A stretch of 64,000 nt of DNA from assembly GCF_965641715.1 (NCBI RefSeq), contig NZ_OZ282453.1, one strand, 5' to 3'. Below, in pieces: positions 35,801 through 38,800 of this stretch. Made by a program: the position numbers. Position 1 is the stretch's first letter. Every line of letters begins with the position of its first letter. Source of the stretch: Escherichia coli (GTDB taxonomy: Bacteria > Pseudomonadota > Gammaproteobacteria > Enterobacterales > Enterobacteriaceae).

Positions 35801-38800
35801 AAATTTTAATGTATTCTGTTTATTTTCTTACCATTGAACATACTTTTATTGTCAGCTGTCGCTGTTCTTCGGTTTGGCCCTCCTGAATCACTATTGCTAA
35901 AATCACGAATTATGCTGTCAATTAAATCTCGTCGGAAAGCATTTTCCTCAGCCGATTTCATTACGAGTAATTGCTTAATAAGAGTCTGCACCGAAAAATT
36001 TATCTTCATGCGCAGTATCTGGAGCACCGCCTGGCCAGTAATTTCATATTTTATACTTTCATTATCAGATGTCTTCATAACGACTTCATAGCTAACCTGT
36101 TAAATAATCAGGCTGTTGCATTATTCAAAAAGCAACCCAATTAGTGCATTATAATGTTTCTGTTCCTCTTCCCCTGTCGCTTGTTCCAGTCGGCAAAGAA
36201 GTTTGGCACAAAGCGACTTTCGACTCAGATTACGTCCATCTTTCAAAATCTCAGTCACAATTTCCCCGAGAGTTTCCTGCTGAGTAGGCAAGTTAGCTTT
36301 TGCAAAGTAACGAGTGATTGCTCCCGCAGAATCTGAAGTCACTGAATTTTGATGCATGCTACGCCTCTGTTAAAAATGTTAATCAATGTTAAGTGAGGTA
36401 ACAATAGCAAACTTGTACGAAATATGTGTACAGAATGATAAATTAATTTTTTGCAATTAGTGCTAATGCATACAAAACAATACGTTATGATAAAACATAT
36501 TGCATCATTTAACTGACAACCTATACAAGATTTATCGCCAACTCGTGTTCAACTTTTTCCATTTTTTATCAATGTAAAGAAACAGTTATGTTTTGGTATT
36601 AAAAGAAAGACACCGGAAGATATGTCTGTTACCGTCTTACTCTCGCCTCTCCCATTACCCTGGACAGTTAATGCTTACCACCCTTATTTATCGTAGCCAT
36701 ATACGTGACGACGAACCTGTCAAAAAAATCGAAGAAATGGTTTCGATAGCAAATCGCAGGAACATGCAGTCTGACGTAACAGGGATCTTACTGTTTAATG
36801 GTTCTCATTTTTTCCAGCTTCTGGAAGGTCCGGAAGAACAGGTTAAAATGATATATCGGGCTATATGCCAGGATCCACGGCACTATAATATTGTTGAGCT
36901 GCTGTGCGATTACGCGCCTGCTCGCCGTTTTGGCAAAGCGGGAATGGAATTATTTGATTTACGCCTGCACGAGCGAGATGACGTTTTACAGGCCGTATTC
37001 GACAAAGGCACATCAAAATTTCAGCTAACTTATGATGACAGAGCGCTACAATTTTTTCGTACTTTTGTCCTTGCAACCGAACAATCAACCTATTTCGAGA
37101 TTCCTGCTGAAGACTCCTGGCTTTTTATCGCTGACGGATCTGATAAAGAACTTGATTCCTGTACCCTTTCACCAAATATAAACGACCACTTTGCCTTTCA
37201 TCCTATTGTTGATCCCTTATCGCGGCGGATAATCGCTTTTGAAGCCATTGTGCAAAAAAATGAAGACAGCCCGTCAGCTATAGCGGTTGGGCAGCGTAAA
37301 GACGGGGAAATCTACACAGCGGATCTCAAAAGTAAGGCGCTTGTATTCGCGATGGCACACACACTTGAGCTCGGTGATAAAATGATATCTATCAATCTAT
37401 TACCTATGACCCTGGTTAACGAGCCTGACGCAGTCTCTTTTTTACTTGATGAAATAAAGGCCAATGGTCTGGTGCCTGAACAAATCATCGTTGAATTTAC
37501 TGAAAGTGAAGTCATATCTCGGTTTGATGAGTTTGCCGAAGCGGTTAAATCGCTAAAGGCTGCCGGTATCAGTGTAGCAATTGATCATTTTGGCGCAGGT
37601 TTTGCTGGTTTGTTACTCCTGTCACGCTTCCAGCCTGACAGAATTAAAATCAGTCAGGAATTGATTACCAATGTTCATAAAAGCGGACCACGGCAGGCAA
37701 TTATTCAGGCGATCATAAAATGCTGTACATCACTTGAAATTCAAGTCTCTGCTATGGGCGTGGCAACACCAGAAGAGTGGATGTGGCTTGAATCCGCAGG
37801 AATTGAGATGTTTCAGGGGGATCTGTTTGCTAAAGCTAAATTGAATGGTATCCCTTCAGTTGCGTGGCCAGAAAAAAAATAATTTTCAGCACATGATTTC
37901 AGTAAATCATCGTGAAAATGAATACGTTATGTTTTAATTTAATCCACATTAAAAATAATGTTTCATCCAATTTAGCTGAAATCTTATTTATACTTTGTAC
38001 AATTTTAGCGTATATTGTACAAAGTATTATTGGGTCGTGTACAGGCGACGGAGATTTGTGACCGCAAGGAGGAATTGTGGCTTATTACAGCATTGGTGAT
38101 GTTGCTGAACGTTGCGGGATTAATCCTGTCACTCTCCGGGCCTGGCAACGCCGCTACGGTTTGTTAAAACCACAGCGCAGTGAAGGCGGACACCGACTCT
38201 TTGATGAAGAAGACATACAACGTATCGAAGAGATCAAGCGTTGGATAAGTAATGGCGTCCCTGTAGGCAAAGTTAAAGCATTACTGGAAACCACCAGCCA
38301 GGATACGGAAGATGACTGGAGCCGCTTGCAAGAAGAGATGATGTCAATTCTTCGTATGGCTAATCCTGCCAAACTACGCGCGAGAATTATTTCACTGGGT
38401 CGAGAGTACCCAGTAGATCAATTGATTAATCATGTTTACCTTCCTGTTCGCCAGCGTCTCGTGCTTGATCACAACACCTCCCGCATTATGAGCAGTATGT
38501 TTGACGGCGCACTAATTGAATACGCAGCAGCCTCGCTTTTCGAAATGCGCCGTAAGCCCGGTAAAGAAGCCATTCTGATGGCATGGAATGTTGAAGAGAG
38601 AGCACGATTGTGGCTGGAAGCATGGCGTTTATCATTGTCAGGATGGCACATTTCTGTTCTTGCTGATCCCATTGAATCGCCGCGCCCGGAACTGTTCCCG
38701 ACGCAAACATTGATTGTCTGGACAGGCATGGCACCAACGAGAAGGCAAAACGAACTTTTACAACACTGGGGTGAGCAAGGTTATAAAGTCATCTTTCATG

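What the first reader, a model, noticed from the sequence alone, without database searches (positions are those of the whole stretch)
36400..38031. Palindromic TTGTACAA-type motifs as candidate BluR operators
Upstream of bluR there is a perfect 11-bp inverted repeat ctttgtacaat-N10-attgtacaaag (38000-38031). A related TGTAC-N10-GTACA arrangement lies in the ycgZ/bluF divergent region near 36420-36450. MerR-family regulators bind palindromes in promoter spacers, and BluR is the known repressor of the ycgZ operon, so these are plausible operators, including an autoregulatory one.
Basis: partly seen in the sequence, partly recalled or inferred. Interest (0 to 1): 0.4.

Follow-up and report, generated by a model that had tools for sequence, protein, structure and literature searches.

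The report
Conserved TGTACA operator over bluR promoter
One of the two flagged motifs is the already published binding site of the E. coli blue-light repressor BluR, and the other is a real, conserved but apparently undescribed site on BluR's own promoter that probably lets the repressor limit its own production.

Summary
The window is the E. coli ycgZ-ymgA-ariR-ymgC / bluF / bluR locus.

**ycgZ site (36414-36432, TGTAC-N9-GTACA).** This is the BluR operator already mapped by DNase I footprint, EMSA and lacZ mutants (Tschowri 2012). It is already known.

**bluR-upstream repeat.**
- It is a perfect 14-bp inverted repeat (37990-38003 / 38014-38027). No repeat of that size appeared in 200 shuffles of the window.
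- Its core is TGTACA-N14-TGTACA.
- It brackets the -10 hexamer (TATATT, 38011-16) and covers the published bluR start site (about 38023).
- A TTGTACA pair sits 79-82 nt upstream of bluR in 11 of 12 loci: E. coli, Citrobacter, Cedecea, Klebsiella, Superficieibacter and Silvania. It is absent in Kluyvera. Spacing ranges from N11 to N14, and the surrounding sequence does not align.
- I found no paper describing it.

**Family context.** The BluR model has a CarH/LitR-like fold. MlrA and the Pseudomonas class II LitR repressors bind TGTACA-N12-TGTACA.

**Best reading (confidence about 0.55).** It is a LitR/MlrA-type operator through which BluR represses its own promoter, with relief by BluF. MlrA as the real binder is the main rival. 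No binding was tested here.

Interest is modest: a new member of a known kind.

The parts
37990..38003 (.). Left arm of the perfect 14-bp inverted repeat (ATACTTTGTACAAT). It contains TGTACA box 1 (37996-38001), at about -27..-22 from the bluR start site.
38014..38027 (.). Right arm of the inverted repeat (ATTGTACAAAGTAT). It contains TGTACA box 2 (38016-38021), at about -7..-2, so it covers the end of the -10 hexamer and the start site.
   Evidence: start-site position inferred
38004..38013 (.). 10-nt spacer of the repeat (TTTAGCGTAT). It carries the first bases of the -10 hexamer. One sampled E. coli strain has a SNP here, while both arms are invariant.
37987..38016 (+). Predicted sigma-70 promoter of bluR: TTTATA (37987-92), 18 nt, TATATT (38011-16).
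   Evidence: consensus scan. It fits the primer-extension start 54 nt upstream of the start codon, and K-12 is identical across this stretch.
38023..38023 (+). bluR transcription start, transferred from the published value (54 nt upstream of GTG 38077).
   Evidence: PMC3509220; sequence identity with K-12. Not measured here.
38038..38043 (.). Third TGTACA in the bluR 5' leader (+16..+21), 16 nt after box 2. It is E. coli-specific: Citrobacter has ATATCG at this position, and strain SCU-101 has TGTAGA.
38077..38808 (+). bluR (ycgE), 243 aa, GTG start. Domains: MerR_1 HTH + MlrA_helical + MlrA_C. 49% identical to MlrA. The predicted fold resembles CarH.
36414..36432 (-). Published BluR operator in the ycgZ promoter. 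Read on the minus strand it is TGTACA (36432-36427), 7 nt, cGTACA (36419-36414). It lies at about -39..-21, overlapping the -35 hexamer and the spacer.
   Evidence: footprint, EMSA and lacZ data in PMC3509220
36522..36527 (.). Degenerate third box (TATACA, i.e. TGTATA on the minus strand) in the ycgZ-bluF spacer, 95 bp from the operator. It is an exact TGTACA in the other genera.
   Evidence: It coincides with the TTGTATAGA noted in the distal RcdA footprint.
36121..36357 (-). ycgZ, first gene of the BluR-repressed ycgZ-ymgA-ariR-ymgC operon. Its start site is about 36393 (36 nt upstream of the ATG).
36671..37882 (+). bluF (ycgF), the BLUF-EAL anti-repressor of BluR. Its start site is about 36641 (30 nt upstream of the ATG).

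Best explanation
The ycgZ-promoter motif (36414-36432) is the known BluR operator.

The palindrome upstream of bluR is a second operator of the same protein family. It consists of two TGTACA boxes (37996-38001 and 38016-38021), each recognised by one winged-helix DNA-binding domain of a BluR oligomer. The boxes bracket the -10 hexamer and cover the start site, so a bound protein excludes RNA polymerase. The result would be negative autoregulation of bluR.

When blue-light- or cold-activated BluF pulls BluR off DNA, bluR would be derepressed together with ycgZ. BluR would then be replenished, the switch reset, and the level of a protein that is toxic when overproduced kept capped.

Shown here or in the literature:
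- the sequence, its non-randomness and its position on the mapped promoter;
- its conservation across genera;
- BluR recognition of GTACA at ycgZ;
- the family-wide TGTACA-N12 operator geometry.

Inferred only: that BluR, rather than MlrA, occupies this site, and that occupancy represses.
For: Non-randomness:
- Perfect 14-bp inverted repeat; 0 of 200 shuffles produce one.
- It is one of only two TGTACA pairs in 64 kb. The other is the proven BluR operator.

Position on the promoter:
- K-12 is identical from window position 37947 through the bluR start codon.
- The published start site, 54 nt upstream of the start codon, therefore falls at about 38023 inside the right arm, with TATATT in the spacer.

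Conservation:
- A TTGTACA pair lies 79-82 nt upstream of bluR in 11 of 12 loci from 6 genera.
- The two hexamers are islands in otherwise unalignable DNA.
- A pair of this kind is expected in at most 0.0002 of shuffles per region.
- Both arms are invariant in 8 diverse E. coli strains.

The protein:
- Residues 13-42, which cover the predicted HTH helices, are invariant across BluR orthologs and nearly identical in MlrA.
- The closest solved relatives and fold matches are CarH/LitR.
- Class II LitR repressors bind T(G/A)TACA-N12-TGTA(C/T)A over -35 or downstream of +1, and are released by a blue-light LOV protein.
- One of them, pplR1, is itself light-induced.
- CarH operators overlap -35 and/or -10 and show spacing plasticity.
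- BluR binds the N12 MlrA box of csgD in EMSA, and overproduced BluR is toxic.
Against: - No binding or expression data for this site exist in anything I could read.
- The geometry differs from the footprinted BluR site. At ycgZ the spacing is TGTACA-N7/8, tightly conserved in all genera. Upstream of bluR it is N11-N14.
- N12 in Klebsiella and Cedecea equals the MlrA box.
- BluR bound the N12 csgD site with lower affinity than the ycgZ site.
- Variable spacing (17-20 bp centre to centre) is awkward for one rigid dimer.
- Kluyvera has bluR but no boxes.
- Tschowri 2012 mapped this promoter without mentioning a BluR site.
Confidence: 0.55

Rival explanations
1. The physiological binder is the paralogue MlrA, alone or in competition with BluR. 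The site would be an MlrA box that couples bluR expression to the c-di-GMP/curli module.
For: - MlrA's footprinted csgD site is TGTGCA-N12-TGTACA.
- The bluR-upstream sites in Klebsiella and Cedecea are exactly TGTACA-N12-TGTACA with A-rich spacers like the csgD site.
- The MlrA and BluR DNA-binding domains are nearly identical.
- BluR's own proven site has a different spacing.
Against: - E. coli has N14, not N12.
- The AAAAT outer flanks of the published MlrA consensus are absent.
- MlrA acts at csgD from far upstream as an activator, whereas this site sits on the core promoter.
- The site travels with bluR in every genus. K. pneumoniae is reported to have only a distant MlrA-like protein, 44% identical.
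- mlrA itself has no such pair upstream.
Confidence: 0.2
2. The conservation reflects promoter elements rather than a regulator site. TTGTAC resembles the -35 hexamer TTGACA, and the repeat is incidental.
For: In five genera the right box TTGTAC is followed by 17 nt and then TAGTTT, TAGCCT or TACTTT, which is a credible promoter. RNA polymerase holoenzyme alone binds this spacer in genomic SELEX.
Against: - It does not explain the equally invariant left box.
- It does not explain the full TGTACA identity, which goes beyond what a -35 hexamer needs.
- It does not explain the 14-bp perfect dyad in E. coli.
- In E. coli the mapped start puts the right box at -7..-2, not at -35.
Confidence: 0.1
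3. Another regulator with a TGTACA-like specificity binds here, for example the TetR-type RcdA (box TTGTnnACA).
For: RcdA binds the neighbouring ycgF-ycgZ spacer and activates ycgF. Its palindromic site TTGTGTACAttTGTACACAA contains two TGTACA.
Against: TTGTACAA lacks the 2-nt insert of TTGTnnACA; the best register has 2 mismatches. RcdA SELEX-clos and SELEX-chip lists contain the ycgF-ycgZ spacer but not the bluF-bluR spacer.
Confidence: 0.07
4. The repeat acts as an RNA hairpin on read-through transcripts from bluF or an upstream promoter, serving as a terminator, attenuator or stabiliser.
For: The 71-nt RNA folds into the 14-bp stem at -18 kcal/mol, z = -3.0. bluF and bluR are transcribed independently. 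A SELEX-assigned promoter lies upstream of the repeat.
Against: - The scan calls no terminator. The stem is AU-rich, the loop is 10 nt, and there is no T-run.
- With the mapped start at 38023, the bluR mRNA contains only the last 5 nt of the repeat.
- In orthologs only the hexamers are conserved. They are invariant rather than covarying, complementarity shrinks to 6-8 bp, and loop length varies.
Confidence: 0.05

Closest known systems
BluR operator in the ycgZ promoter (Tschowri, Lindenberg & Hengge 2012, PMC3509220)
   Same: It shares the TGTACA/GTACA core, overlaps a core promoter, lies in the same locus and has a repressor logic. The window's 36414-36432 motif IS this site.
   Different: The bluR-upstream site has its hexamers 20 bp apart centre to centre (N14). 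At ycgZ they are 13-14 bp apart (N7/8), and that spacing is conserved in all genera examined. Binding at the bluR site is untested.
MlrA box of the csgD promoter (Ogasawara 2010, as quoted in PMC3509220 and PMC9662190)
   Same: Two TG(T/C)ACA hexamers about two helical turns apart. The regulator has a nearly identical DNA-binding domain. BluR binds this box weakly in vitro.
   Different: The csgD box has N12 spacing, AAAAT flanks and a far-upstream activating position. The E. coli bluR site has N14 spacing, lacks those flanks and sits on -10/+1.
Class II LitR operators of Pseudomonas PplR1/PmlR2 (Maruyama 2022, PMC9758184)
   Same: - Consensus T(G/A)TACA-N12-TGTA(C/T)A.
- Sites overlap -35 or lie just downstream of +1.
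- The repressor is removed by a blue-light flavoprotein partner.
- At least one regulator gene (pplR1) belongs to its own light regulon.
   Different: The partner photoreceptor is a short LOV protein, not BLUF-EAL. The C-terminal domains differ. The spacing there is fixed at N12 in the reported sites.
CarH/LitR class I operators (T. thermophilus, B. megaterium, M. xanthus; review PMC8156234)
   Same: The BluR model's best fold matches are full-length CarH. TGTACA fits the TnnACA core of the CarH 11-bp element nAnnTnnACAn. CarH operators overlap -35 and/or -10 and block RNA polymerase. The family shows spacing and orientation plasticity.
   Different: CarH binds 3-4 tandem 11-bp direct repeats as a B12-dependent tetramer. 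BluR has no conserved histidine in its C-terminal half and is controlled by a partner protein. Here the boxes are 20 bp apart.
RcdA box TTGTnnACA (Shimada 2012, PMC3535384)
   Same: It has a TGTACA-containing palindrome, belongs to the same biofilm regulatory neighbourhood, and binds the adjacent ycgF-ycgZ spacer.
   Different: The protein family differs (TetR), and the half-site is 9 bp with a 2-nt insert. The bluF-bluR spacer was not recovered by RcdA SELEX.

Membership tests
BluR operator as footprinted at PycgZ | Pair of (T)GTACA motifs | tested here: met
   36414-36432 has TGTACG/TGTACA. 37996-38021 has TGTACA/TGTACA.
BluR operator as footprinted at PycgZ | Spacing TGTAC-N9-GTACA (hexamers N7/8) | tested here: not met
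   This is met by the ycgZ site and its orthologs. The bluR-upstream site is TGTAC-N16-GTACA (hexamers N14; N11-N13 in orthologs).
BluR operator as footprinted at PycgZ | Overlap with the core promoter of the regulated gene | tested here: met
   The ycgZ boxes lie at about -39..-34 and -26..-21. The bluR boxes lie at about -27..-22 and -7..-2, relative to the published start sites.
BluR operator as footprinted at PycgZ | Binding by purified BluR and derepression when the site is mutated | not testable with these tools
   This is published for the ycgZ site. I found no data for the bluR site.
MlrA box / class II LitR operator | Two TGTACA-like hexamers separated by exactly 12 nt | tested here: not met
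   The E. coli window has N14. The orthologous sites are N12 in Klebsiella and Cedecea, N13 in Citrobacter, and N11 in Superficieibacter and Silvania.
MlrA box / class II LitR operator | AAAAT outer flanks (MlrA consensus AAAATTGTACA) | tested here: not met
   The flanks are TACTT (E. coli), TGTTT/CACTT (Citrobacter) and TTAGC/CATTC (Klebsiella).
MlrA box / class II LitR operator | Regulator with a LitR/CarH-type DNA-binding domain encoded nearby | tested here: met
   The BluR DNA-binding domain matches CarH/LitR chains 3WHP and 5C8D at E about 7e-14. The full-length model matches CarH at E 1e-9.
Canonical MerR-type operator | Dyad centred in an over-long (19-20 bp) -35/-10 spacer, bound by a coiled-coil MerR dimer | tested here: not met
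   The predicted spacer is 18 bp and the dyad centre is about -14.5. The BluR model has a CarH-like helical bundle plus a Rossmann-like domain, and canonical MerR structures match only its N-terminal part.
CarH tandem direct-repeat operator | 3-4 tandem 11-bp repeats nAnnTnnACAn | tested here: not met
   TGTACA satisfies TnnACA. However, position 2 is C rather than A, and the boxes are 20 bp apart, not 11.
RcdA box | TTGTnnACA | tested here: not met
   The best register, cTTtGTACA, has 2 mismatches. The bluF-bluR spacer is absent from the RcdA SELEX lists.
Intrinsic terminator | G+C-rich stem, short loop and a T-run | tested here: not met
   The scan made no terminator call in 36300-38150. The stem has 3 G-C pairs out of 14 and the loop is 10 nt.

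The most novel reading that the evidence does not exclude
The bluR-upstream site is the ancestral LitR/CarH-type operator of a B12-less CarH descendant, and it is shared by BluR and MlrA. The c-di-GMP/curli regulator MlrA and the blue-light repressor BluR would then compete on the bluR promoter, adding a direct cross-regulatory link between the two paralogous modules. The variable N11-N14 spacing, the third E. coli box and the conserved auxiliary box 95-96 bp from the ycgZ operator would reflect binding by a CarH-like oligomer with flexibly tethered DNA-binding domains, possibly with DNA looping, rather than by a classical MerR dimer.
Probability: 0.2. Interest if true: 0.55.

Novelty: new member of a known kind. 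Interest (0 to 1): 0.33.

Why it matters
The BluF-BluR-Ymg-Rcs pathway is the model for how E. coli turns blue light and cold into biofilm decisions. Its wiring is drawn with BluR as a constitutively supplied repressor that has one direct target.

A conserved operator on bluR's own promoter would add a negative feedback loop. That loop would set the BluR:BluF ratio, and with it the light threshold and the recovery kinetics. It would also explain how a protein that is toxic when overproduced is kept low.

The comparison with MlrA, class II LitR and CarH places BluR's DNA recognition in a family-wide TGTACA grammar. It also highlights that the well-studied ycgZ site has an unusual spacing. The gain is incremental rather than surprising.

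Tried and rejected
**Literature.**
- All ten searches plus targeted reads of PMC3509220, PMC3535384, PMC6900184, PMC9181523, PMC5491885, PMC9189660, PMC4797297 and PMC3946193 found no report of BluR autoregulation or of this palindrome.
- Tschowri 2009 (Genes Dev) and Ogasawara 2010 (FEMS Microbiol Lett) are not held. I could therefore not check ycgE::lacZ data or the MlrA SELEX target list.

**Ideas tested and dropped.**
- Terminator: rejected.
- RcdA box: rejected on sequence and SELEX lists.
- An autoregulatory box upstream of mlrA, as evidence for a subfamily habit: none present.
- A ycgZ-like N7 partner (cGTATA at 38009-14) next to box 1 in E. coli: not conserved in any other genus, so treated as coincidental with the -10 hexamer.
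- TGTACA at 37724 inside bluF: explained by Cys-Thr codons, not pursued.

**Uninformative or not possible.**
- A search for TTGTACAA in papers returned only primers and cloning sites.
I could therefore not test presence or absence of mlrA/csgD in those genomes, nor run a genome-wide pattern scan.
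Full report
**Locus.** ORF listing and megablast against complete E. coli genomes identify the region as ycgZ-ymgA-ariR-ymgC (minus strand), bluF (36671-37882, plus) and bluR (GTG 38077-38808, plus). The best match is 99.8% to O145:H28 strains. K-12 MG1655 is identical from window position 37947 through the bluR start codon, and across the ycgZ promoter motif. Published K-12 and MC4100 data can therefore be transferred base for base.

**Check of the observation.**
- The inverted repeat upstream of bluR is real but lies 7 nt to the left of the stated coordinates and is longer than stated. The arms are ATACTTTGTACAAT (37990-38003) and ATTGTACAAAGTAT (38014-38027), 14/14 complementary, with a 10-nt spacer.
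- In 200 dinucleotide-preserving shuffles of the 64-kb window, no 14-bp perfect inverted repeat with a spacer of 20 nt or less occurred.
- The ycgZ-side motif is TGTAC (36414-18), N9, GTACA (36428-32). The spacer is N9, not N10.
- TGTACA as a word is not enriched (12 found, 11.6 expected). The arrangement is: the only pairs with a 6-15 nt spacer (one exact hexamer, the other with at most one mismatch) in the window are these two sites.

**The ycgZ motif is already known.** Tschowri, Lindenberg and Hengge (2012, PMC3509220) footprinted BluR on the ycgZ promoter.
- They described a protected site in which a direct GTACA...GTACA repeat overlaps a palindromic TGTAC...GTACA.
- They placed it over the -35 hexamer and the spacer.
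- They showed that point mutations in either half-site reduce or abolish binding in EMSA, and derepress ycgZ::lacZ as much as a bluR knockout.
- With their start site (36 nt upstream of the ATG, so about 36393), the window's hexamers fall at about -39..-34 and -26..-21, exactly as described.
- The same spacer also carries a MarA box about 62 bp upstream of that start (marbox-like sequence at 36449-36463) and RcdA footprints.

**The bluR-upstream palindrome on the promoter.**
- The same paper maps the bluR 5' end 54 nt upstream of the start codon and states that bluR has its own sigma-70 promoter. That puts +1 at about 38023, inside the right arm.
- The consensus scan finds TTTATA (37987-92), 18 nt, TATATT (38011-16), which fits that start.
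- Box 1 (37996-38001) therefore lies at -27..-22, and box 2 (38016-38021) at -7..-2. The dyad centre is near -14.5, and the -10 hexamer lies between the boxes.
- Any protein occupying both boxes would occlude RNA polymerase.
- RNA polymerase holoenzyme alone binds this spacer in genomic SELEX, and H-NS is flagged there.
- The paper does not mention the palindrome. The word "autoregulation" does not occur in it, and none of my searches found a report of it.

**Conservation.**
- A scan of one genome per species returned 12 loci with BluR orthologs (60-84% identity), all with the ycgZ(-)/bluF(+)/bluR(+) synteny.
- Eleven of the twelve carry two TGTACA hexamers whose first copy lies 79-82 nt upstream of the bluR start codon.

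| Taxon | Spacing between hexamers |
|---|---|
| E. coli (window) | N14 |
| Five Citrobacter species and a Raoultella-labelled MAG | N13 |
| Cedecea | N12 |
| Two Klebsiella | N12 |
| Superficieibacter | N11 |
| Silvania | N11 |
| Kluyvera | no pair |

- In the multiple alignment, the two TTGTACA blocks are the conserved islands of the bluR-upstream region. The rest of that region is only weakly conserved.
- Mononucleotide shuffles of each intergenic region give such a pair in at most 0.0002 of trials.
- Among eight diverse E. coli strains both arms are invariant. One SNP falls in the spacer, and the third hexamer (38038-43) is mutated in one strain. That third box is also absent in Citrobacter, so I treat it as weak.
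- In the five genera outside Escherichia and Citrobacter, the right box reads TTGTAC, 17 nt, then TAGTTT, TAGCCT or TACTTT. This is a plausible promoter in which the right box is the -35 hexamer. In E. coli and Citrobacter that downstream hexamer has decayed. E. coli uses TATATT in the lengthened inter-box spacer (mapped start 38023), but no start site is mapped for Citrobacter. This promoter shift is inference only.

**Who binds? Geometry.** The geometry argues against simply copying the ycgZ model.
- At ycgZ the hexamers are N7/8 apart in every genus.
- Upstream of bluR they are N11-N14 apart.
- The MlrA site in the K-12 csgD promoter is TGTGCA-N12-TGTACA.

**Who binds? The protein.**
- BluR and MlrA are 49% identical overall. 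Residues 13-42, which cover the predicted HTH helices, are invariant among BluR orthologs and almost unchanged in MlrA.
- BluR's domains are MerR_1 + MlrA_helical + MlrA_C.
- Its closest solved relatives by sequence are T. thermophilus CarH/LitR (3WHP, 5C8D; E about 7e-14 over the DNA-binding domain).
- An AlphaFold2 model (mean pLDDT 84.5, with a low-confidence hinge at residues 73-76) hits full-length CarH first (5C8F/5C8E/5C8D, E 1e-9 to 1e-6). B12-binding domains of MerR-type photoreceptors come next. Canonical MerR proteins match only the N-terminal domain.
- No histidine is invariant in the C-terminal half. This is consistent with loss of cobalamin binding, which I did not test further.

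**Who binds? The family literature.**
- CarH DNA-binding domains each contact an 11-bp element nAnnTnnACAn. TGTACA satisfies the TnnACA core.
- CarH operators overlap -35, -10 or both, and the family shows "notable DNA-binding plasticity".
- Pseudomonas class II LitR repressors PplR1 and PmlR2 bind T(G/A)TACA-N12-TGTA(C/T)A at sites over -35 and between +1 and the start codon. They repress in vitro and are released by a blue-light-activated short LOV protein.
- pplR1 is itself among the light-induced genes.
- TGTACA about two helical turns apart is therefore the family's common operator form. The bluR-upstream site fits that form, and the ycgZ site is the unusual one.
- BluR does bind the N12 csgD box in EMSA, with lower affinity than PycgZ, and excess BluR is toxic.

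**Verdict on mechanism.** I commit to BluR negative autoregulation by promoter occlusion, relieved by BluF, at confidence about 0.55. MlrA as sole or competing binder is at about 0.2. Smaller shares go to promoter-element-only conservation, another regulator such as RcdA, and an RNA hairpin.
- The hairpin idea is weak. The mapped bluR mRNA starts inside the right arm, the scan finds no terminator, and orthologs conserve the hexamer sequence rather than the pairing.
- RcdA is weak because TTGTACAA lacks the 2-nt insert of TTGTnnACA, and RcdA SELEX recovered the ycgF-ycgZ spacer but not the bluF-bluR spacer.

**Novelty and score.** The ycgZ half of the finding is already known. The bluR half is, as far as the held literature shows, an undescribed but unsurprising addition: a new member of a known operator kind. 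I could not consult RegulonDB or EcoCyc, Tschowri 2009 or Ogasawara 2010, so prior mention elsewhere cannot be excluded. Interest is 0.33.

Noticed in passing
window 36522-36527 (E. coli TATACA); L003 1415, L007 1363, L008 1443, L012 1478, L013 1538, L010 1488: A third, single TGTACA box lies in the ycgZ-bluF spacer. It sits 94-96 bp from the bluF-proximal operator hexamer in six genera, and 106 bp (one extra helical turn) from TGCACA in Klebsiella. In E. coli it is degenerate (TGTATA) and coincides with the TTGTATAGA noted in the distal RcdA footprint. It may be an auxiliary operator or looping site.
   Followed up: partly
window 38077-38808 (BluR protein): The predicted BluR structure has the three-domain CarH/LitR architecture: a winged HTH, a helical bundle and a Rossmann-like domain. 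Full-length CarH structures are the top fold matches. There is no invariant histidine in the C-terminal half. The light-pathway repressor BluR thus looks like a B12-less relative of the B12 photoreceptor CarH.
   Followed up: partly
window 37590-37606, inside bluF: TTGGCGCAGGTTTTGCT is the published intragenic sigma-54 binding site 483 nt upstream of bluR (Bonocora 2015). The published SrsR (YgfI) box assigned to bluR, gCAGgTTTTGC, is the same sequence (37595-37605). The two reported features therefore overlap.
   Followed up: partly
L007, L008, L009, L010, L013 (about 2936-2985) versus window 38015-38043: In five genera the right box TTGTAC plus 17 nt plus TAGTTT/TAGCCT/TACTTT forms a good predicted promoter. 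In E. coli and Citrobacter that -10 has decayed (TGTACA and ATATCG), and the mapped E. coli start uses TATATT inside the lengthened inter-box spacer. This suggests promoter relocation within the operator.
   Followed up: partly
L012 (Kluyvera ascorbata) about 2925-2945: This is the only bluR ortholog locus without the TGTACA pair. At the equivalent place it has a different imperfect palindrome, TGAGTAAATATTTAACTCA. Its ycgZ operator is retained (TGTACA-N7-TGTATA).
   Followed up: no
window 35005-35055: A large inverted repeat, ATATCAGGCGTCAAGAATGGAGAG / CTCTCCATTCTTGACACCTGATAT, has a perfect 15-bp core at 35012-35026 / 35033-35047. It lies between ymgC and pdeG and is the only other long perfect inverted repeat in the window. 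It is probably the operon terminator or a REP-like element.
   Followed up: no
L010 (K. pneumoniae) 4814-4853: A direct repeat ACTATGTACAAC occurs twice, giving a TGTACA pair with N18 spacing, about 1.1 kb downstream of bluR. Its meaning is unknown.
   Followed up: no
window 37883-37890 versus K-12: Immediately after the bluF stop codon, K-12 and most sampled strains carry an extra approximately 10-bp segment (TTTCAGCACA-like duplication) that the window lacks. SNPs cluster in the first 60 nt of the spacer, while the 130 nt up to bluR are nearly invariant.
   Followed up: no
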